A DNA stretch of 53,065 nucleotides from the NCBI GenBank assembly GCA_031546715.1, contig JAVBKA010000086.1, positions 1 to 53,065 on the forward strand, given 5' to 3'. The stretch is from Oscillospiraceae bacterium (GTDB lineage: Bacteria; Bacillota; Clostridia; Oscillospirales; UBA929). The notes beneath the pieces are model-generated. The model ran no database searches. It had not been told where the DNA came from and worked only from the letters and a program-made list of their open reading frames with translations. Positions within the stretch are counted from its first letter, which is position 1. Every line of letters starts with the position of its first letter. This document shows positions 3,204 through 48,604 of this stretch, in pieces. Both the position numbers and the translations under genes were made by a program.

Positions 3204-3721
3204 TGGAAACTACATCACTAGTAACAGAAGCATTTAATATCTGGGATTTCCTTAACGGCAACACTCTTGCATACCTCGGCGTTATTCTCGCAGTAGTCCT
3301 TGCGGGTATCGGATCTGCAAAGGGTGTTGGTCTTGTGGGTGAAGCCGGAACAGGGCTGATTGTTGAAGACCCTAACAAATTCTCTAAAATAATGATTCTT
3401 CAAATTATCCCCGGTACACAAGGTCTATACGGCTTTGTTGTTGCACTTCTTGCTCTTATTAACCTTGGCGTTCTCGGCGGTACACCTGCAACTCTTACTC
3501 TTGCACAAGGCGGCGCATATCTGATGGCATGTCTGCCAGTCGGTATTGTGGGTCTTTTATCCGCTATTTCACAGGGACGTGTAGCCGCTGCTGCTGTAAA
3601 CATTGTTGCAAAGCGTGAAGAAGAAATGTTTAAGGGCATTATGCTTGCCGTTATGGTTGAGTTCTATGCGATTCTTGCTCTTCTTGTTTCAATCCTCATG
3701 ATTACCGGCATTAAGTTGTAA
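3200..3721 (+). CDS. ntpK: V-type ATPase proteolipid subunit K (c-ring)
   Basis: Very hydrophobic, Gly/Ala-rich four-helix protein with an acidic residue in the last helix (VMVEFYAIL). ATGA overlap with ntpI. Confidence 0.85.
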   Translation: MMETTSLVTEAFNIWDFLNGNTLAYLGVILAVVLAGIGSAKGVGLVGEAGTGLIVEDPNKFSKIMILQIIPGTQGLYGFVVALLALINLGVLGGTPATLTLAQGGAYLMACLPVGIVGLLSAISQGRVAAAAVNIVAKREEEMFKGIMLAVMVEFYAILALLVSILMITGIKL

Positions 3722-3724
3722 GCC

Positions 3725-4330
3725 ATGGACGGACTTGATAAAATCATCGAACGCATCGCTTCGGACACAGGCAAGGAAGTCGGTGCAATAATTGACGCCG
3801 CTAAGGTCAAGGCTGACGCTCTTTTGGCCTCCGCCAAGGAAGAAGCCGCTCAATTTACATCCCAAGCAAGGCTTGACAGTCAAAAGGCTGCCGAGCTTCA
3901 ATTACAGCGCATTGTGGGAACTGCCGAGCTGACAGCCCGCAAAAATTCCCTATCTGCAAAACAGACATGTATTGACAAGGCCTTTGAAAGTGCCGCTAAA
4001 TTACTTAGAGAGAAATCCGAAAGCGACACTGTTTCACTTCTTGCAGGTCTTGCCGCTTCCGCCGCGCGTAAGGGTACAGAAGAAATAGTGATGTCCTCCG
4101 CAGACCATTCCCGTTTTGGCAAAAAAGTTGCCGAAGCCGCTAACGAGAAGCTTTCCAAGAACGGCAAAACCGCCGCTCTCCGTCTTTCAGCGTCACCCCG
4201 TGACCTAGAAGGCGGCGGAGGTTTAATTCTTAATGATGGCGACATTGAAATTAACTGCTCCTATGGTGCGTTGATTGAAAATAGCCGAAATGAGCTTTCC
4301 AGTGAGGTCGCAAAAATACTGTTTGCCTAA
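3725..4330 (+). CDS. ntpE: V-type ATPase subunit E
   Basis: 201 aa with a long Ala/Lys/Glu-rich N-terminal helix and a globular C-terminus. Operon position supports the call. Confidence 0.8.
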   Translation: MDGLDKIIERIASDTGKEVGAIIDAAKVKADALLASAKEEAAQFTSQARLDSQKAAELQLQRIVGTAELTARKNSLSAKQTCIDKAFESAAKLLREKSESDTVSLLAGLAASAARKGTEEIVMSSADHSRFGKKVAEAANEKLSKNGKTAALRLSASPRDLEGGGGLILNDGDIEINCSYGALIENSRNELSSEVAKILFA

Positions 4331-42281: not shown

Positions 42282-42503
42282 GGATTTTCCTCCTAATTGT
42301 TATTGGTTGGTATGGGTGCTCATAGCCCGAACAGTAAAAAATGCTTTGTTGTAGCGTTTGCTAAACCAAGAAATCGCGTAGCGGTTTCTGTTTAGCATAA
42401 GCGGAAACGAAGATTTTTTACGTCCGTGAGGGCGTTATGAGCCTGACATCATCGTCGTAGCCCGCCCTCGCACTTACATCAACACCAACATGACGGGGAA
42501 CGC
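42282..42503 (-). other. unusually long (~220 nt) structured spacer between rpsJ and rplC
   Basis: No ORF. Several inverted repeats: TGCTAAAC...GTTTAGCA (8 bp), GAGGGCG...CGCCCTC, GCTCATA...TATGAGC. Confidence 0.5.
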
Positions 42504-42911
42504 TTACAGTTTTATTTCAAACTCAAGACCGGCCGGAAGATCAAGGCTCATCAGCGCTTCCATTGTTTTTTGTGAAGGCTTGATAATATCGATGATTCTC
42601 TTGTGGGTGCGGCGCTCGAATTGTTCGCGGCTATCTTTATACTTATGAACTGCACTGAGAATTGTTATGATTTCCTTTTTTGTCGGAAGGGGAATAGGAC
42701 CTGAAACTCTTGCGCCTGTGCGCTTTGCTGTTTCGACGATGCGCTCTGCGCTTTGGTCGATAAGCTGATGGTCATATGCCTTCAGGCGAATACGGATAAC
42801 TTCTTTCATTTTAGGAGCTGCTGCAGGTGCTGCTGCCTTTGGGGCTACAGGCTTTGTTTCAACTGTTTTGGTTGCCTTTGATTCTTTTTGAGTTGTTTCG
42901 GTTGTTGCCAT
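42504..42911 (-). CDS. rpsJ: 30S ribosomal protein S10 with ~34-aa Lys/Ala/Pro/Thr-rich N-terminal extension
   Basis: Canonical S10 runs from [10 protein letters not shown] onward. A strong AAGGAGG lies 9 nt before the ATG at 42911, and there is no SD before the internal Met. The track ORF start at 43073 is spurious. Confidence 0.85.
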
Positions 42912-43238
42912 GTTTTGCTTCCTCCTTAATATGCTCGGTGAAATCTTTACCGCCTTGCCGTGTGTGTCGCCAAACTTCATAAATTTTGCCGGAACTGACA
43001 AAACTCGTTTTGCCAAAGTTTCCGGCTGACAGAGGCTTAAAATATCTCTCCCGGCCGCCCGATTAACGGACATACTCCACCGAAGTGACCAAATGCCAGA
43101 TGTTCACTGCCCCAGTATAACAAGGACAAGACGAGCCTTGCTAATCAAATTAGCCGCTCAAAGATGAACTCCCAGATTTGCAATCTACGGTTTCATTGCA
43201 TTTTTGCGCACAAATATCCTGTTAGATAAAAATGGCAC
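42912..43238 (-). promoter_or_regulatory. long (~325 nt) 5' leader of the S10 operon
   Basis: Region between the predicted promoter and the rpsJ SD. It contains strong hairpins, for example GCCGGAA...TTCCGGC nested with CAAAAC/GTTTTG around 42984-43025. Confidence 0.45.
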
Positions 43239-43244
43239 TTGATG

Positions 43245-43273
43245 ATAATATCAGTCAAGTGCCCAAATGTCAA
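43245..43273 (-). promoter_or_regulatory. putative S10 operon promoter
   Basis: On the - strand TTGACA (43273-43268), 17-nt spacer, TATTAT (43250-43245), with an A/T-rich UP-like tract upstream. Confidence 0.6.
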
Positions 43274-43302
43274 GAGTTTTTATAAAATTTTTCTGGTTTT
43301 TT
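43268..43302. repeat. left copy of 35-nt direct repeat flanking the AT-rich islet
   Basis: TGTCAAGAGTTTTTATAAAATTTTTCTGGTTTTTT compared with 46681-46715: 32/35 identical by manual alignment. Confidence 0.8.
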
Positions 43303-43409
43303 TTGATGACACACCTCTGAATATAACTTAAACAAAAAAAATTGAGTTACTGCAGTCCGATTGTCGATTGAACTTAAGCTGTGTATTCGCTTAAAAATTT
43401 GGTTATCTG

Positions 43410-43438
43410 ACAAAAAATCACAGCCAAAAACTGTAATC
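43410..43438 (-). terminator. terminator of the islet operon
   Basis: On the - strand GATTACAG-tttttgg-CTGTGATT (8 bp including two G-U pairs) followed by TTTTTG, 16 nt after the stop of the 399-aa ORF. Confidence 0.55.
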
Positions 43439-43453
43439 ACTTTGAAATTACCT

Positions 43454-44653
43454 TTATTCACATATTTCTTTTGACAATTTACAAATTGATTCACGTGCTT
43501 CTGCAAGTTCTATGACATTCGCACTTACAGAAAATCTGGTTTTATGCAAGGTAGTGTAAAAATTAGTTAAGTCATTAATATGTGATAAGACAAACTTCGT
43601 AAGCAAAAATTTATTTGCTTCTATTGCATGAATTGTTTGCGCGTTACCTTTTTGCAAAGATGTAAAAAAATAATGAACTGAAAGAAATACTTTCAGTAAC
43701 TTGTTTAACTTAACTTTCAAATCTGGCCAGACACTGTCGGTTTGAAATAGCTTTGCAGTTGTTATTAATTCGGTTATTTCAATAATATCATGAGCCACAT
43801 ATGTATAAGTGTTTTGACTATTTGCACAAACACTAAAATCTATTTTTAGTGTTTGTGCAACACTGCGTAATTCACAATCAATGTCTTTAAGAGACTCAGA
43901 GTACTTTGTTACATTGTTGCCTAAAAAACACTCTTGTTCTAAAATTGTTTGTAAGGCAATTCCTCTTAGATGAGACATTTTTGCAACGCTCTTAGCCACT
44001 GGCACAGTTCCTAAAGAAACATCTCCAAACAAATTTAAAACATTTATTATCTCTTTGCAGGTCTTAGTGGCACATAGCCGTAACCATTTATCTCTATTAT
44101 TGCTTTGCCATCTAACAATAATCTGCATATATAAAAAGAACTTAATCAAATCTTTTTTATGTAGGGCTATCATTGCAAAAAAGGAAATAATTATTAAAGA
44201 AAGCATTCGAGAATCAATATGCACTTCTTCAACTTCTTCAACTTTTTCAATTGAACACAATAACCTTGGTGCATAAACGCAATTATTATATTCAACAATC
44301 AATCTTGTGCATGCGTGGAGAGGTTCTGGCAAACGAAAGCAATATCTAACTTTAAGAATGCTATCGTCTTCTGGAAGACTTTCAGAAATTCTTTCAGAAT
44401 TTTTATTATCATATGATGCAATTTTAGTTATATTTATCAAGCTATCATTCGAAATTTTTTCATTTTTTCCAAATGCTTTGTAAGCCTCTATAATTACTGA
44501 TATCAACTGCATATCAATATTGTAATTACCCGTATTTTTATCATACAAACAATTTTTAAACTCTTTAAACTCATCCTTCGCCAATAAGCAATTATATACT
44601 TCAAAAATACAATAATTAATCATATTGCGCATTAATTCACCAGCTTTATCCAA
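43454..44653 (-). CDS. hypothetical helical protein, partner of the PRTase-like protein
   Basis: 399-codon ORF that begins immediately after the upstream TAA (TTG 44653, or ATG 44632). A/T-rich codons. I recognise no motif. Confidence 0.6.
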   Translation of the reverse strand: MDKAGELMRNMINYCIFEVYNCLLAKDEFKEFKNCLYDKNTGNYNIDMQLISVIIEAYKAFGKNEKISNDSLINITKIASYDNKNSERISESLPEDDSILKVRYCFRLPEPLHACTRLIVEYNNCVYAPRLLCSIEKVEEVEEVHIDSRMLSLIIISFFAMIALHKKDLIKFFLYMQIIVRWQSNNRDKWLRLCATKTCKEIINVLNLFGDVSLGTVPVAKSVAKMSHLRGIALQTILEQECFLGNNVTKYSESLKDIDCELRSVAQTLKIDFSVCANSQNTYTYVAHDIIEITELITTAKLFQTDSVWPDLKVKLNKLLKVFLSVHYFFTSLQKGNAQTIHAIEANKFLLTKFVLSHINDLTNFYTTLHKTRFSVSANVIELAEARESICKLSKEICE

Positions 44654-46486
44654 TTAATTTATCTCTCGTTTATTGATATAGTCGTCAACAAATTCTTGCG
44701 CCTTACAATAATTGTTAAACAATTGTTTATCTTCCTCTATACGTTCACAAAAACTCCTATACTCACCAACACCAAGTGCCTTCCATAGACTCAAAACATC
44801 ACTGATACTCTTGGCATTCTGAGTCCAACTACAAAGTTTCTGAATCATTGAACATGGTTCAGAAATTTGAGCGTTAAGAAAACATTCAGTAAAGGCTGTA
44901 ACATTTCTTTTCAAGTTTTCTAAAGTCCCTGATAAAAGGGCGTATCGAAATATGGCAAAATAATAAACGGGAGCATGCCTCACTGATGAAACATATCCCT
45001 CCCCTGCATAGGCGTCTTTGACAATATACGGCGTATTCTCTCGATAATGTATAGACGCAGAATAAGATGCCCCAGACCTGAGTGTAGTACGCAGTGAAGC
45101 CAATCCGATTGCACTTTTCAGTGCTCTATTATTTCTACATGGAAGTACGTGCAGTTTGAAAAAACTAATCAAATGAATTTTGGGCTTTCCAGCAACTTCA
45201 GTGTTGACCGTTTCTAAAACACGTTTCTCAACAGGAAATAGCATCGATTCAATCTCTTGTTCAATCTCTTGTTCAATCTCTTGCTCAATCTCTTGTTTTT
45301 TGCAAAATTCTGTTAATGGTTTATCTAGCGAAGCCACATTAGCGATATCATTCAACGTAATTTCGTCTATGCCGATAGAATTTTCCTCAAAACTAAAAAA
45401 AGTGCACAAATCGATTGAATGATTATAAAACAATTTCAACTCCGTGCTCAGTTCATTTGGAAAATGGTAAGCTTCATATTCAACATCAAATTGAAACAGG
45501 TCTTGTAAGCACGGCACATCGCTGAACAATCGCTTAGCAACGCGCAATGATAACATATATGCCAATATCTTATGAATTAGCAAAGTTGATTTTTGACTAA
45601 TCAGTTGGTCGTTCAGCAAGCATCGAAAATGAACAAGGGAAAGACAGCTTTCTTCTTCCACGTAGGACAAAAGATTCAATAAACTTTTGCGAGCACGCTC
45701 AAAACTAACTGCGGAAAATATGGAGACCGGAATCAATCTAACATTAAATATATTTTCTTCGCAAAAATACGTTACTCGTATCCCCTCAAATAGCATGTTA
45801 GGCATTTGATTTTCAGATATACTATGAATAATAAAGGAGTTTTCTGCGACATAATCATTGGAAATTGGTATATGGAACTTTTCACATTTCCATGTTTGTT
45901 CATCTATGGTCATGTTGATGGAAGTAAGCTTATCAAACTGCTCTTTTGTCATAGAAGCGCGATAAACAGGCAAATCCATTGAAAAAGGAAGTGATAACGC
46001 ATGAGTTAGCTTCATTGTACGAATTGTAAAATCATGTAAATCAACCTCTGGAACTATACTTGAACAAGTCAATGGTGCGGGAAGTTGGATTAAAGGATTA
46101 AACACGTTACTTACAAGCATAACTGCTGGGGTAATATTCTTAATACCACGTTCCTGTAAAATCATGCATATATCTTTTAAGTGCTTTCCTGTTGACACGG
46201 TGTCGTCTATAACTGTAAAATTCAAATTGACCAAGTGTGTCCAGTCAGTAATTTTATCAATGTACCTGTCACTAAAAACTATAGCATTATTATCTTTTAT
46301 ATACCCACACGACAATGCGATCAAGTATAGGCAAAACCCTTTTCGGGACATAAAAACAAACACATCATGCTCAGTTGCCTTAGCAAAAAGCTGTTTGAAA
46401 AAATCTCTGACCGACTCCGCATAGTCACTGCCTAAAAAACTTCTGAGTAATTCTTCTGACGTAGTTTTTGAAAAATATCCGCTCAT
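44654..46486 (-). CDS. large protein with N-terminal phosphoribosyltransferase-like domain and unknown ~480-aa C-terminal region
   Basis: FTVIDDTVSTGKH resembles the type I PRTase PRPP-binding signature (hydrophobic strand, DD, xxSTG). It is preceded by VFVFMSRKGF, a strand-loop segment consistent with the PRTase fold. AGAGGTG lies 5 nt before the ATG at 46486. Confidence 0.6.
   Translation of the reverse strand: MSGYFSKTTSEELLRSFLGSDYAESVRDFFKQLFAKATEHDVFVFMSRKGFCLYLIALSCGYIKDNNAIVFSDRYIDKITDWTHLVNLNFTVIDDTVSTGKHLKDICMILQERGIKNITPAVMLVSNVFNPLIQLPAPLTCSSIVPEVDLHDFTIRTMKLTHALSLPFSMDLPVYRASMTKEQFDKLTSINMTIDEQTWKCEKFHIPISNDYVAENSFIIHSISENQMPNMLFEGIRVTYFCEENIFNVRLIPVSIFSAVSFERARKSLLNLLSYVEEESCLSLVHFRCLLNDQLISQKSTLLIHKILAYMLSLRVAKRLFSDVPCLQDLFQFDVEYEAYHFPNELSTELKLFYNHSIDLCTFFSFEENSIGIDEITLNDIANVASLDKPLTEFCKKQEIEQEIEQEIEQEIESMLFPVEKRVLETVNTEVAGKPKIHLISFFKLHVLPCRNNRALKSAIGLASLRTTLRSGASYSASIHYRENTPYIVKDAYAGEGYVSSVRHAPVYYFAIFRYALLSGTLENLKRNVTAFTECFLNAQISEPCSMIQKLCSWTQNAKSISDVLSLWKALGVGEYRSFCERIEEDKQLFNNYCKAQEFVDDYINKREIN
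45248..45295 (-). repeat. 4 x 12-bp in-frame tandem repeat (QEIE)4
   Basis: On the + strand TTCAATCTCTTG occurs three times plus one variant (CTCAATCTCTTG). Confidence 0.9.
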
Positions 46487-46526
46487 AAATGCACCTCTGA
46501 TATTTTGTGAGTACAATTGGCTTCCA

Positions 46527-46589
46527 TTTCATCTTATGCTGGAAAGCACACAAAGATGAAACACAAACCACCGCACATTGCTGTGCGGT
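46527..46589 (-). promoter_or_regulatory. structured 5' leader of the islet operon (two hairpins)
   Basis: Hairpin ACCGCACA-ttgc-TGTGCGGT (46570-46589) and a 9-bp perfect stem TTTCATCTT...AAGATGAAA (46527-46561), both between the promoter and the SD. Confidence 0.45.
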
Positions 46590-46657
46590 CTATCGTATAA
46601 ATCGGAATTCGCCAAGGCACGACTGGAATAATACAAAATCCCTATTAGTACTATAAT

Positions 46658-46686
46658 AGTATAGTACTCAAACGTCCATTTGTCAA
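46658..46686 (-). promoter_or_regulatory. putative promoter of the islet operon
   Basis: On the - strand TTGACA (46686-46681), 17-nt spacer, TATACT (46663-46658). The palindrome AGTACTATA-atag-TATAGTACT (46647-46668) overlaps the -10. Confidence 0.6.
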
Positions 46687-46715
46687 TAGTTTTTATTAAA
46701 TTTTTCTTGTTTTTT
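46681..46715. repeat. right copy of 35-nt direct repeat flanking the AT-rich islet
   Basis: TGTCAATAGTTTTTATTAAATTTTTCTTGTTTTTT compared with 43268-43302: 32/35 identical. Confidence 0.8.
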
Positions 46716-46735
46716 CCCAATTCCCTCTATCATCG

Positions 46736-48604
46736 TCAATCCTCGTCTGACCGCACAGCCTTTTCTTTATAGAAAAATCTAGCAAGCAAAATAGTGCCCG
46801 CATTAAAAAATGCGTCAACAGCTACTGCCGCAACAGGAGGCAAAATGCCCGTCAAAACTCCTGCCAGACTGACTGCCTTCGCTGAGGCGGCAATAATCAG
46901 CACTGTTTTTGACAGTTTCACTGTCTGCACAGACTGGGACATGGCATTTATCAGCGGGGAAAACTTTGGAGACAGTGACGCTATATCGGTTCTTACAGGT
47001 TCGCCCAGTGCACCTATGACCGCCGTTACGGTAGCCGTGGTTAGGAGTGCGTGACTGTCGTTGGGTTTGCCTATGAACAGCGTTCCTCCACTGTTGGATG
47101 TTTCCGTTACCAGTTCCTTGAGTACTCGAATTTTGTCCGCCGGTTGGAGGTTTACATGGATATCCGAGATGCCCAGACGGTTGGCAAGTGTTTGGGTTGC
47201 GGTGATGGCGTCGCCTGTAATCATGGCGATATCAGTACCCATGCTGCAAAAAAACTGCACAGCTTCATTTGCCCCAGGGCGCATAGCGTCTGACATCATA
47301 AAGCAGCCTAAATATGTATTGTCAAGGGCTAGGTAAACGATGTTGCCTGGTTTTTCGTCTACTGTAATGCCCGCCTGTGTCAAAAATCTTGCTGAGCCTG
47401 CGTGTATGGTCTGCGATGAAAACTTTGCCACAACGCCCAAGCCCGGCTTTTCCTTAAAGGATTCCGGCGGATATCCCACGTCGCCGCAGTATTCACGGAT
47501 TGCTGTACCGATACGGCTGGTGCTTGGGTGCTGAGATATTGCGGCACAGCGGAGAAATGTCGCCCTGTCAATGCCCTTTGCAAGCTCTATGCCTACTACT
47601 GAGTAGTTGTGCTCAGTCAAAACACCGTTTTTATCGAATACCGTAAGCTTAGTTTTTGCAAGGTTTTCAACCACCTTGCCGTTGCGGATAATAACTCCCT
47701 GTCGCGCCGCTTCACTGGCGTTGAGCTTAAAGAACGTACCAATAGAAACGCTTACAGGCTTAACGGCTGCCAATAGCAACACCCCAACCGCCCTCGGCAG
47801 CCACAGTGCAAGCTCTGACTTAAATACAAATGGTATCACCACGCATACAATCGCGGCGACTAACATACCCAAGGCGATAAAAAGCTCAACGCCTTTGGGA
47901 AGAGACTGTAATTTTGAACCGTCCACCGCTGAATTGACACATTTTTCAAGCTCAATAGCAGGTGTGTCGTTCATAGGTTCAGCTTTAAGTGCCAGCAAGC
48001 CGTCAAAGTTACGAGTTCCCGCAATCAAAAAGTCACCCTCTTGAACGGAAATGCGTTCCTTGTCAGCTCCAAGCAGTTCGTAAGAGATTTCGCTGTTGCC
48101 CTTCATTATCAGCCCGTCTACAGGCACAATGCCGTCTGGCGGGACAATAAGCGCGTCTCCGTCCTTAACCTCAGTTCTCGGAACTTCGATGACTTGTTTT
48201 TTTCTAAAAACATGAGCCATTGTCGGTCTGGGGTCAAGTCCGTGATAACAAACCTTTGCAGAGGCCGCCTCTTGATAACGCTGTAAAAACAGCATTCCCT
48301 GCCAAATAAACACCGCCGCTACGCCCAGCCACGGAGTTTTTGTCGCCAAAGCGGCAAATGCGCCAAGCATCAGCAATATTTCAAAATAGGGGACGCCCTT
48401 TTTCCCTTTTCCAAAGGCCTCGATTAATAAATCCGCGGATATTATAAGCATCGAAAAAGCAAATAACGCTATGGAAACTCCGATAGGCGTAAAAAACCCT
48501 ATCCCAAAGGCGACTAAAGCTAGTACGGCTTTAGCGTAAAACAACGTACCGCTGCGTAATTTTAGAAACTGAAAAACAGCAGACAAACGCTTTTGCTCCT
48601 TCAT
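46736..48604 (-). CDS. P1B-type (heavy-metal) P-type ATPase-like membrane protein with degenerate catalytic motifs
   Basis: 622 aa. FDKNGVLTE replaces DKTGTLTE, MITGDAITA is retained, GKPNDSHAL replaces GDGINDAPAL, there is no TGES (GADK instead) and no CPC (KPV instead). Confidence 0.65.
   Translation of the reverse strand: MKEQKRLSAVFQFLKLRSGTLFYAKAVLALVAFGIGFFTPIGVSIALFAFSMLIISADLLIEAFGKGKKGVPYFEILLMLGAFAALATKTPWLGVAAVFIWQGMLFLQRYQEAASAKVCYHGLDPRPTMAHVFRKKQVIEVPRTEVKDGDALIVPPDGIVPVDGLIMKGNSEISYELLGADKERISVQEGDFLIAGTRNFDGLLALKAEPMNDTPAIELEKCVNSAVDGSKLQSLPKGVELFIALGMLVAAIVCVVIPFVFKSELALWLPRAVGVLLLAAVKPVSVSIGTFFKLNASEAARQGVIIRNGKVVENLAKTKLTVFDKNGVLTEHNYSVVGIELAKGIDRATFLRCAAISQHPSTSRIGTAIREYCGDVGYPPESFKEKPGLGVVAKFSSQTIHAGSARFLTQAGITVDEKPGNIVYLALDNTYLGCFMMSDAMRPGANEAVQFFCSMGTDIAMITGDAITATQTLANRLGISDIHVNLQPADKIRVLKELVTETSNSGGTLFIGKPNDSHALLTTATVTAVIGALGEPVRTDIASLSPKFSPLINAMSQSVQTVKLSKTVLIIAASAKAVSLAGVLTGILPPVAAVAVDAFFNAGTILLARFFYKEKAVRSDED

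What the first reader, a model, noticed from the sequence alone, without database searches (positions are those of the whole stretch)
43268..43302. 35-nt direct repeats (32/35) bracket the islet and duplicate the -35/UP part of the S10 promoter
TGTCAA(G/T)AGTTTTTAT(A/T)AAATTTTTCT(G/T)GTTTTTT occurs at 43268-43302 and again at 46681-46715. In both copies, read on the - strand, it supplies the TTGACA -35 box and the upstream A/T tract of a promoter. One promoter drives the S10 operon and the other drives the islet. Similarity weakens but continues into the spacer (13/19 identical). This looks like an insertion scar or att-like duplication. It means the islet is expressed from a copy of a ribosomal-protein promoter, coupling its expression to growth-rate control.
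Basis: seen in the sequence. Interest (0 to 1): 0.62.

Follow-up and report, generated by a model that had tools for sequence, protein, structure and literature searches.

The report
One strong-promoter module, present twice
The 35-base repeat on either side of a foreign two-gene islet is real, but it is the RNA-polymerase-recruiting upstream half of two separate strong promoters, a stereotyped sequence that unrelated bacteria also use, so it is promoter reuse and not a proven insertion scar.

Summary
The repeat is confirmed: 43268-43302 and 46681-46715 match at 32/35, are unique in the window, and never arise in shuffles. Read on the minus strand, each copy holds three phased A-tracts (UP-element-like, 11-12/14 to the UP consensus) plus TTGACA. 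A good -10 follows 17 nt later. These are the two best promoter matches in the region.

The S10-side copy is the resident S10 promoter, because its downstream leader is orthologous to the S10 leaders of relatives. The other copy heads a low-GC islet (GC3 0.24-0.33 against about 0.49) that encodes a PRTase-domain protein and an orphan partner. Metatranscriptome contigs stop just downstream of both predicted start sites.

- Similarity ends at the -35. The spacer match is no better than between unrelated promoters.
- The 24 shared bases of the core occur exactly, as promoters, in eight metagenome contigs from unrelated contexts.
- There is no recombinase, tRNA or empty site.

The growth-rate-control inference is not supported, because the known determinants lie in the part that is not repeated.

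The origin is unresolved. I favour recombination at the shared module during insertion (about 0.45) over independent convergence or later promoter capture. Interest is modest.

The parts
43268..43302 (-). Repeat copy 1: three phased A-tracts (UP-like) plus extended -35 (TCTTGACAT) of the resident S10-operon promoter
   Evidence: UP consensus 12/14. The proximal part AAAAACTCTTGACA is shared with the S10 promoters of relatives L005 and L014.
43245..43267 (-). S10 promoter core: 17-nt spacer and -10 TATTAT (43245-43250) with TG extension. Predicted +1 is the G at about 43238.
   Evidence: 11/12, TG before the second hexamer. The +1 is inferred from spacing only.
43226..43263 (-). Perfect 9-bp inverted repeat GGCACTTGA-N12-TCAAGTGCC that encloses the -10, followed by ATTTTTAT. 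It looks like an intrinsic terminator for transcripts arriving from the islet.
   Evidence: inverted repeat of 9 or more in 2 of 2000 shuffles. (-16.9 kcal/mol, z = -5.3).
43055..43204 (-). S10 leader: end-to-end match to the S10-Clostridia leader, with an 80-nt insertion in the first hairpin
   Evidence: RF03136, 22.2 bits, below the gathering score of 35.1. Relatives L014, L015 and L016 reach the gathering score. Local alignment to the relatives' leaders scores 24-42 against a background of about 14.
42504..42911 (-). rpsJ (S10), called as 135 aa with an N-terminal extension. It is the first gene of the S10-spc ribosomal protein cluster.
43303..43411 (-). AT-rich (32% GC) non-coding tail of the islet, between its terminator and the S10 module. 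No function found.
43412..43438 (-). Islet terminator: hairpin GAUUACAGUU-UUU-GGCUGUGAUU followed by U6, directly after ORF2
   Evidence: -10.1 kcal/mol, z = -2.5.
43454..44632 (-). Islet ORF2: about 392 aa, helical, orphan
   Evidence: No hit in Pfam, PADLOC, NCBIfam, PHROGs or PDB. The single-sequence model is unusable (pLDDT 34). GC3 is 0.24.
44654..46486 (-). Islet ORF1: about 610 aa, with an N-terminal phosphoribosyltransferase (PRTase) domain and a large C-terminal region of unknown fold
   Evidence: 56 distant relatives. Relatives hit PRTase Pfam families and, weakly, ShosT and the retron III-A PRTase models. A family profile hits PRTases in the PDB. Model pLDDT is 84.5 and the fold matches HGPRT. 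GC3 is 0.33.
46487..46651 (-). Structured 5' leader of the islet operon, with a terminator-like hairpin at 46570-46589
   Evidence: (z = -3.2). (-14.8 kcal/mol). An RNA contig runs through it (46378-46632).
46647..46668 (-). Perfect 9-bp inverted repeat AGTACTATA-N4-TATAGTACT across the -10 and +1 of the islet promoter. It ends in the same register as the one in the S10 promoter.
   Evidence: 8 of 2000 shuffles. (-8.8 kcal/mol).
46658..46680 (-). Islet promoter core: 17-nt spacer and -10 TATACT (46658-46663). Predicted +1 is the G at about 46651.
   Evidence: 11/12. The RNA contig ends at 46632.
46681..46715 (-). Repeat copy 2: the same UP-like/-35 module, heading the islet and lying 20 nt after the ATPase stop codon
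   Evidence: UP consensus 11/14.
46736..48586 (-). Host-composition P-type (P1B-like) ATPase gene, co-directional, immediately upstream
   Evidence: Nearest relatives are 29% identical or less. GC3 is 0.485.

Best explanation
What it is (shown or strongly indicated, about 0.85). The repeat is the upstream half of two separate sigma-A-type promoters. That half consists of three A-tracts phased about 10-11 nt apart, which act as an UP-like element for the alpha-subunit C-terminal domains, plus an extended -35 for sigma region 4.
- Copy 1 (43268-43302) belongs to the resident S10-operon promoter.
- Copy 2 (46681-46715) heads a horizontally acquired, low-GC two-gene operon: a PRTase-domain protein plus an orphan partner, defence- or toxin-like by resemblance only.

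The module gives strong RNA polymerase recruitment. Everything that could make the two promoters behave differently lies in the unrelated downstream halves:
- different spacers and -10 boxes;
- a different 9-bp palindrome over each -10/+1;
- for the islet, a structured leader with a terminator-like hairpin;
- for S10, the ribosomal-protein leader.

Two terminators lie between the islet and the S10 leader: the hairpin after ORF2, and a hairpin embedded in the S10 promoter. Together they should insulate S10 from islet transcription.

Why it is there twice (inferred, about 0.45). The module is a stereotyped strong-promoter sequence that also sits on unrelated DNA elsewhere. I think the islet most likely entered by recombination between such a module on the incoming DNA and the resident S10 module. 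This could be a Campbell-type event or one mediated by a recombinase acting in trans. It would leave one hybrid module on each side, so that both the islet and the essential S10 operon keep a complete promoter. It is not a transposase-type target-site duplication.
For: - The repeat is real and unique in the window.
- Both copies are the top-scoring promoters in the region and match the UP consensus AAAWWTWTTTTNNNAAA at 12/14 and 11/14 (consensus as quoted in PMC2412878).
- The S10-side copy is the resident promoter. Its proximal part and its leader are conserved in relatives.
- The islet is foreign by composition, and the GC shift coincides with the repeats.
- RNA contigs of a gut metatranscriptome cover 94% of the sampled words of ORF1. 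They end at 46632 and 43188, just downstream of the predicted starts at about 46651 and 43238, and leave gaps over both promoters.
- The module recurs elsewhere. GAAAAATTTNATAAAAACTNTTGACA is found exactly in 8 metagenome contigs, each time with a -10 box 17 nt downstream. The contexts are a non-coding transcript before mreB or folA in genomes of about 60% GC, a LacI-family gene at 37% GC, and an XRE regulator pair at 26% GC.
- The closest relative has a 26/35 version in front of acpP.
- For a link with insertion: the two copies are each other's best match (32/35, against 27-30 for the selected foreign instances and 23 or less for S10 orthologues). Only these two copies exist in 53 kb, and they lie exactly at the two composition boundaries.
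- The gene upstream of S10 differs in all five relatives.
- In contig L009 the same module, with its host-type upstream terminator, is joined directly after TTGACA to unrelated low-GC DNA.
Against: - No empty site, no second genome of this lineage and no DNA-level population data could be found. The origin is therefore inference only.
- There is no recombinase in or next to the islet.
- The longest exact run shared by the two copies is 10 nt, which is short for RecA-dependent recombination (my knowledge).
- Beyond the 24 bases shared with foreign instances, the two copies share only an A-tract (8/9 distal bases). The sequence alone therefore does not show that they are closer to each other than to promoters in other organisms.
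- L009 may be an assembly chimera joined through the shared module.
- The transcription start sites are not mapped. Logan contigs carry no strand, and DNA carry-over is possible.
Confidence: 0.5

Rival explanations
1. Independent promoters. The islet arrived with its own complete promoter. That promoter resembles the S10 promoter only because strong promoters in this group of bacteria converge on the same phased-A-tract/UP plus consensus -35 sequence. Its position next to S10 is coincidence.
For: - 25 of the 32 matches are shared with promoters in unrelated organisms of 26-62% GC.
- A foreign instance (L011) is 30/35 identical to each window copy.
- The acpP promoter of the closest relative is 26/35.
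- There is no significant similarity after the -35.
- The base before TTGACA is C in all six S10 promoters but A in the islet copy.
Against: - Exact instances are very rare: 8 contigs, forming about 4 contexts, in 241 million records, and none in the viral contigs.
- No other promoter in the 53-kb window carries the distal part.
- The two copies sit 3.4 kb apart, co-oriented, exactly at the islet boundaries.
- Other same-lineage strong promoters reach only about 20-26/35.
Confidence: 0.25
2. Promoter capture after insertion. The islet landed upstream of the S10 promoter without a strong promoter. It later gained one when the upstream half of the S10 promoter was copied in front of it, or when gene conversion homogenised an initially weaker similarity.
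For: - Promoter reuse in front of unrelated genes is common in bacterial genomes. The criterion is at least 80% identity over at least 50 nt (PMC3575422), and this pair is 44/55 = 80%.
- The two copies are each other's best match.
Against: - It needs a 35-nt copy placed in exact register 17 nt from a pre-existing -10 box.
- If the whole promoter was copied, the spacer and -10 have since diverged to background level. That implies a long time, yet the islet's GC3 (0.24-0.33) shows no drift towards the host value of 0.49.
Confidence: 0.15
3. Ancestral tandem promoters. The S10 operon originally had two similar promoters in tandem, and the islet was inserted between them.
For: Ribosomal operons often have tandem promoters (my knowledge).
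Against: - Each of the five relatives shows a single strong promoter in front of the S10 leader.
- Only the proximal copy is followed by leader sequence that is orthologous to the relatives.
Confidence: 0.05
4. Target-site duplication made by a transposase, or classical attL/attR made by an integrase encoded in the element.
For: Direct repeats lie exactly on either side of a foreign segment.
Against: - There is no transposase or integrase gene, and no terminal inverted repeats.
- 35 nt is far longer than known target-site duplications (my knowledge).
- The copies differ at 3 of 35 positions although the islet is not compositionally ameliorated.
Confidence: 0.03

Closest known systems
UP-element-containing strong promoters (rrnB P1 type; UP consensus AAAWWTWTTTTNNNAAA plus tcTTGACAt, as quoted in PMC2412878)
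   Same: An A/T-rich block between about -64 and -38 matches the consensus at 11-12 of 14 positions. It is followed by a consensus (S10 side: extended) -35, a 17-nt spacer and a good -10. It sits in front of a ribosomal-protein operon.
   Different: There is a third, more distal phased A-tract. Nothing has been tested for dependence on the alpha C-terminal domain. The organism is an uncultured Oscillospiraceae-like bacterium.
Putative mobile promoters / promoter reuse (Matus-Garcia, Nijveen and van Passel 2012; PMC3575422)
   Same: Highly similar upstream sequence lies in front of unrelated genes in one genome. The pair meets the 80%-over-50-nt criterion at its threshold (44/55). The same sequence is also seen in distantly related bacteria.
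   Different: The real similarity covers only 35 nt (UP plus -35). The two copies are adjacent and lie on either side of a foreign islet, not scattered through the genome.
attL/attR of genomic islands that integrate into the 3' end of tRNA genes and restore the target with their own copy (my knowledge)
   Same: Direct repeats bracket a compositionally foreign segment. The downstream copy keeps an essential function intact, here the S10 promoter.
   Different: The repeat is a promoter half, not a tRNA end. There is no integrase, the repeats are not identical, and no empty site is known.
PRTase-effector defence systems: ShosTA (PMC11961720) and type III-A retrons (PMC12746101)
   Same: ORF1 has a PRTase domain. 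Some of its relatives weakly hit the ShosT and PRTase_III-A models. It is a small, AT-rich, two-gene operon.
   Different: The PRTase domain is N-terminal, whereas in ShosT it is C-terminal after a pyrophosphatase domain. The partner is not DprA-like. There is no reverse transcriptase. The window protein itself hits no defence model.

Membership tests
Sigma-70/sigma-A promoter with UP element | -35 and -10 hexamers close to consensus, 17 +/- 1 nt apart | tested here: met
   TTGACA-17-TATTAT and TTGACA-17-TATACT, each 11/12, the two best in the region.
Sigma-70/sigma-A promoter with UP element | A/T-rich block upstream of the -35 that matches AAAWWTWTTTTNNNAAA | tested here: met
   12/14 (S10 side) and 11/14 (islet side). 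The consensus is taken from PMC2412878.
Sigma-70/sigma-A promoter with UP element | Transcripts start 6-8 nt after the -10 | tested here: inconclusive
   Metatranscriptome contigs end 19 nt (islet) and 50 nt (S10) downstream of the predicted +1 and leave gaps over both promoters. Only contigs are held, without strand and without raw reads.
Sigma-70/sigma-A promoter with UP element | Stimulation depends on the alpha C-terminal domain | not testable with these tools
   Needs in vitro transcription or reporter assays.
Integrase-type att sites of a genomic island | Recombinase gene within or next to the element | tested here: not met
   The islet is filled by two ORFs with no recombinase domain. 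The neighbours are an ATPase gene and rpsJ.
Integrase-type att sites of a genomic island | Identical core sequence in both flanking repeats | tested here: inconclusive
   32/35 overall, with a longest exact run of 10 nt.
Integrase-type att sites of a genomic island | Empty site with a single copy in related genomes | tested here: inconclusive
   No close relative exists in the collections: ATPase 29% identity or less, L3 77% or less, and only one RNA run holds the locus.
Transposon target-site duplication | Short identical duplication, terminal inverted repeats and a transposase | tested here: not met
   The repeat is 35 nt with 3 mismatches. There are no terminal inverted repeats and no transposase.
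Putative mobile promoter (PMP) | At least 80% identity over at least 50 nt upstream of non-homologous genes (PMC3575422) | tested here: met
   44/55 = 80% ungapped, which is exactly at the threshold. The 20 nt beyond the -35 are not significant on their own.
S10-Clostridia ribosomal protein leader (RF03136) | Score at or above the Rfam gathering threshold (35.1 bits) | tested here: not met
   22.2 bits, but the match covers model positions 1-81 with an 80-nt insertion. Relatives score 38.9-42.2. I describe it as an expanded relative of the family, not as a member.
ShosTA defence system | ShosT (pyrophosphatase plus C-terminal PRTase) with a DprA-like ShosA partner | tested here: not met
   The window ORF1 hits no PADLOC model. 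Only 8 of 30 relatives hit ShosT weakly. The PRTase domain is N-terminal. ORF2 has no DprA hit. The ShosTA architecture is taken from PMC11961720.
iNTP / growth-rate-regulated promoters of Firmicutes | Determinants in the -10 to +1 region, such as the T three bases after the -10, and the identity of +1 (PMC3113569) | tested here: inconclusive
   Both promoters have a T at the third base after the -10 and a G at the seventh. These bases lie outside the repeat. Whether they confer regulation cannot be tested here.

The most novel reading that the evidence does not exclude
The conserved UP/-35 module is itself a recombination target. Small cassettes without a recombinase carry a copy of a widespread strong-promoter module. 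They integrate by recombining with a resident copy in front of a highly expressed, essential operon. That would give the cassette a promoter and regenerate one for the host operon. If so, strong-promoter modules would serve as portable attachment sites, and the L009 junction would be a second case in another lineage.
Probability: 0.12. Interest if true: 0.7.

Novelty: new member of a known kind. Interest (0 to 1): 0.33.

Why it matters
The finding shows how a foreign, possibly toxic, two-gene operon can sit directly in front of an essential ribosomal-protein operon without disturbing it. Each unit has its own full-strength promoter, built on the same polymerase-recruiting module, and terminators lie between them.

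It is also a caution for genome scans. Near-identical A/T-rich repeats on either side of an islet can be functional promoter halves that recur across unrelated bacteria, so identity alone does not prove an insertion scar.

If the module really guides integration, that would offer one route by which defence islets that lack recombinases move.

Tried and rejected
- Empty site or related genomes:
  - An exact look-up of the ATPase found nothing.
  - The genome-contig scan with the ATPase returned only an irrelevant 27% hit.
  - ATPase homologues are 29% identical or less.
  - The nearest L3 is 77% identical.
  - Only one RNA run holds the locus, and no DNA run does.
- Relatives of the islet:
  - The word-based homologue search found none.
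  - Nothing was found in plasmids or phages by protein or DNA search.
  - Nothing was found in the viral contigs.
  - The context of the 36% relative P0241 could not be fetched, because only proteins from the search for homologous proteins can be looked up.
- ORF2: no family hit, no PDB hit, and an unusable model.
- Similarity continuing into the spacer: rejected after comparison with 135 control promoter pairs and with shuffles.
- Weak hints that the islet-side spacer start (AATGGA) resembles the S10 promoter of L014: judged to be noise, because the conserved C before TTGACA points the opposite way.
- Similarity upstream of the repeats (AGAGG): out of register and at chance level.
- The inverted repeats over the -10 as a feature conserved in relatives: not found as perfect repeats there.

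Full report
OBSERVATION

The two 35-mers are where the finding says they are. On the minus strand they read AAAAAACCAGAAAAATTTTATAAAAACTCTTGACA (43302..43268) and AAAAAACAAGAAAAATTTAATAAAAACTATTGACA (46715..46681), 32/35 identical.

- The 25-nt core, allowing up to three mismatches, occurs only at these two places in the 53-kb window and in none of 100 shuffles.
- In 60 Markov shuffles of 43200-46800 the best 35-mer self-match was 27, against 32 observed.
- Each copy ends in TTGACA, followed after 17 nt by TATTAT (with a TG extension) or TATACT. At 11/12 each, these are the two best promoter matches in 42400-47000.

The repeat is real and beyond chance.

SURROUNDINGS

Everything from 39.8 to 50.5 kb is on the minus strand. 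In order, it holds:

1. A NYN-domain gene, ilvE and a P-type ATPase (46736-48586).
2. Copy 2 of the repeat, 20 nt after the ATPase stop codon.
3. Two ORFs of about 610 and 392 aa.
4. 151 nt of AT-rich DNA.
5. Copy 1 of the repeat.
6. The S10 leader, rpsJ and the ribosomal-protein cluster.

The segment between the copies is compositionally foreign. GC3 is 0.33 and 0.24, against 0.46-0.56 for nine host genes. The shift coincides with the repeats.

By L3, the organism is an uncultured Oscillospiraceae-like bacterium (nearest 77%) from an invertebrate-gut sample.

WHICH COPY IS THE S10 PROMOTER

Copy 1 is. The sequence after its -10 aligns to the S10 leaders of relatives with local scores of 24-42, against a background of about 14. 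The sequence after copy 2 does not (10-18).

The region 43055-43204 matches the S10-Clostridia leader RF03136 end to end, with an 80-nt insertion. It scores 22 bits, below the gathering score. Three relatives reach the gathering score.

The S10 promoters of five relatives share only the proximal part of the module, AAAAA(A)CTC-TTGACA.

HOW FAR THE SIMILARITY GOES

It stops at the -35.

- In 10-nt bins the identity runs 2, 2, 4 | 9, 9, 9, 7, 5, 5, 6 | 1, 1, 2.
- The 20/40 identity after TTGACA is ordinary for promoters aligned on their -35. Across 135 control pairs the mean is 14.2 and the sd 4.2, and 11 pairs reach 20 or more.
- A gapped local alignment of the 90 nt after the -35 scores 15, against 14.6 +/- 2.2 for shuffles.

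THE MODULE ELSEWHERE

A metagenome scan for GAAAAATTTNATAAAAACTNTTGACA (24 specified bases) found eight contigs. In every one a -10-like hexamer lies 17 nt downstream. The contexts differ:

- In two groups of genomes of about 60% GC, the module follows a terminator and drives a 330-380-nt non-coding stretch that ends in a strong terminator. This lies before mreB or folA.
- In a 37%-GC contig (L009) it precedes a LacI-family gene.
- In a 26%-GC contig (L011) it sits between XRE-type regulators.

Further comparisons:

- L011 is 30/35 identical to each window copy.
- The closest relative (L005) has a 26/35 version in front of acpP.
- The module matches the UP-element consensus at 12/14 and 11/14. 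On the S10 side it also matches the extended -35 TCTTGACAT (consensus from PMC2412878).

Thus 25 of the 32 matches between the two window copies are positions that unrelated promoters also keep. What the two copies share beyond that is a distal A-tract (8/9). The sequence is a stereotyped strong-promoter module.

EXPRESSION

One metatranscriptome run holds the locus.

- Its contigs cover the S10 operon up to 43188, ORF1 almost completely (94% of the sampled words), and the islet's 5' end up to 46632.
- There are gaps at 43189-43295 and 46633-46803, that is, over both promoters.
- The predicted starts are at about 43238 and 46651.

This fits two separate transcription units. However, these are unstranded contigs at low depth, so the start sites are not mapped.

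THE ISLET

- ORF1 belongs to a sparse family of about 600-aa proteins: 56 hits in 1.8 billion representatives, the best at 36% identity.
- It has an N-terminal PRTase domain. This is supported by the profile against the PDB, the Pfam and PADLOC hits of its relatives, and the model (pLDDT 84.5, HGPRT-like fold).
- The remaining roughly 430 residues match nothing.
- ORF2 is an orphan.
- The pair is not ShosTA. The domain order differs and the partner is not DprA-like.

I call it a candidate PRTase-effector defence or toxin-antitoxin-like pair, by resemblance only.

OTHER FEATURES

- ORF2 is followed by a hairpin plus U6 (43412-43438).
- The S10 promoter carries a perfect 9-bp inverted repeat around its -10, followed by ATTTTTAT (43226-43263; -16.9 kcal/mol, z = -5.3). 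Only the right arm of this repeat lies in the S10 transcript. It would terminate transcripts arriving from upstream.
- The islet promoter has a different perfect 9-bp inverted repeat that ends in the same register (46647-46668).
- None of 15 other promoters compared has an inverted repeat longer than 5 bp there.
- The islet leader is structured (z = -3.2) and has a terminator-like hairpin.

ORIGIN

The site has no recombinase and no usable comparison genome, and the only tRNA in the window is 42 kb away. The origin therefore rests on inference.

- Against pure coincidence:
  - Exact instances of the module are very rare in public data.
  - The window has only these two.
  - They are each other's best match.
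  - They sit exactly at the composition boundaries.
- Against an old duplication in place: the spacer and -10 have diverged to background level, while the islet's composition is not ameliorated.
- Against a transposase-type duplication: the length, the mismatches and the gene content.

I therefore favour recombination between a module on the incoming DNA and the resident module (about 0.45). Next come independent promoters (0.25), later capture or gene conversion (0.15) and tandem ancestral promoters (0.05).

Contig L009 joins the same module, with its host-type terminator, directly after TTGACA to unrelated low-GC DNA. It is either a second such junction or an assembly chimera.

GROWTH-RATE COUPLING

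In Bacillus subtilis the determinants of iNTP-dependent control lie in the region of the transcription bubble, for example the T three bases after the -10 (PMC3113569). That region is not repeated here.

Both promoters do have a T at that position and a G at the likely +1. That is two bases, it lies outside the finding, and it is untested.

VERDICT

The scar or att reading is neither shown nor excluded, and the growth-rate reading is not supported.

This is a new example of a known kind, promoter-module reuse next to a horizontally acquired islet. It carries one unexplained detail, the register-matched palindromes, and one speculative but testable idea, promoter modules as integration sites.

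Noticed in passing
L007 about 3440-3815 (minus strand of the locus); L006/L013, L008 and L010 equivalents: The same promoter module drives a 330-380-nt non-coding stretch in genomes of about 60% GC. The stretch starts GAAAGGAA(A)GGTGAGTCCG and ends in a strong GC hairpin plus T-run, lying before mreB or folA. No Rfam family matches it. It may be an undescribed, highly expressed RNA.
   Followed up: partly
L009 1-2149; L012 contig end: The first 84 nt of L009 (terminator plus module) are near-identical to contigs L007 and L010 (59% GC). Everything after TTGACA is unrelated 37%-GC DNA holding a LacI-family gene. Contig L012 ends 22 nt after the -35. This is either real variation at the module or assembly breaks and chimeras caused by it.
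   Followed up: partly
window 43234-43263 and 46647-46668: Each of the two promoters has a perfect 9-bp inverted repeat over its -10 and +1. The sequences differ but both end at the same distance from the -35. None of 15 other promoters compared has more than 5 bp there. They could be terminators, operators or recombination arms.
   Followed up: partly
window 45248-45295: Four tandem 12-nt units (TTCAATCTCTTG on the plus strand) encode (QEIE)n in a low-confidence linker of ORF1 (residues about 400-441). This is a possible in-frame length-variable tract.
   Followed up: no
window 43822-43860: A perfect 17-bp inverted repeat with a 5-nt loop lies inside the ORF2 coding region (pair I5).
   Followed up: no
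window 42504-42911; L005 1736-2125: S10 carries an N-terminal extension of about 32 aa, rich in Ala, Pro and Lys (135 aa as called). The closest relative shares it (129 aa), but more distant relatives do not (104-111 aa).
   Followed up: no
window 43055-43204: The S10 leader matches RF03136 over the whole model but has an 80-nt insertion in the loop of the first hairpin.
   Followed up: partly
window 46736-48586: The P-type ATPase has no relative above 29% identity among 5.8 billion proteins, and its only Pfam hits are E1-E2_ATPase and Hydrolase (no metal-binding-domain family), although its composition is host-like.
   Followed up: no
L003, L005, L014, L015, L016 upstream of rpsJ: The gene upstream of the S10 promoter differs in every relative: Zip transporter, acyl carrier protein, PGA_cap, DnaB_2/IstB-like pair, and PAP2 plus a tRNA. 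This junction is a break point of gene order in the group.
   Followed up: partly
L005 1342-1376 (minus strand): The divergent acpP-side promoter of the closest relative, AAAAAAGATAAAAATTTTTAAAAAAAGACTTGTCA, has the same architecture of three phased A-tracts and is 26/35 identical to the window module.
   Followed up: partly
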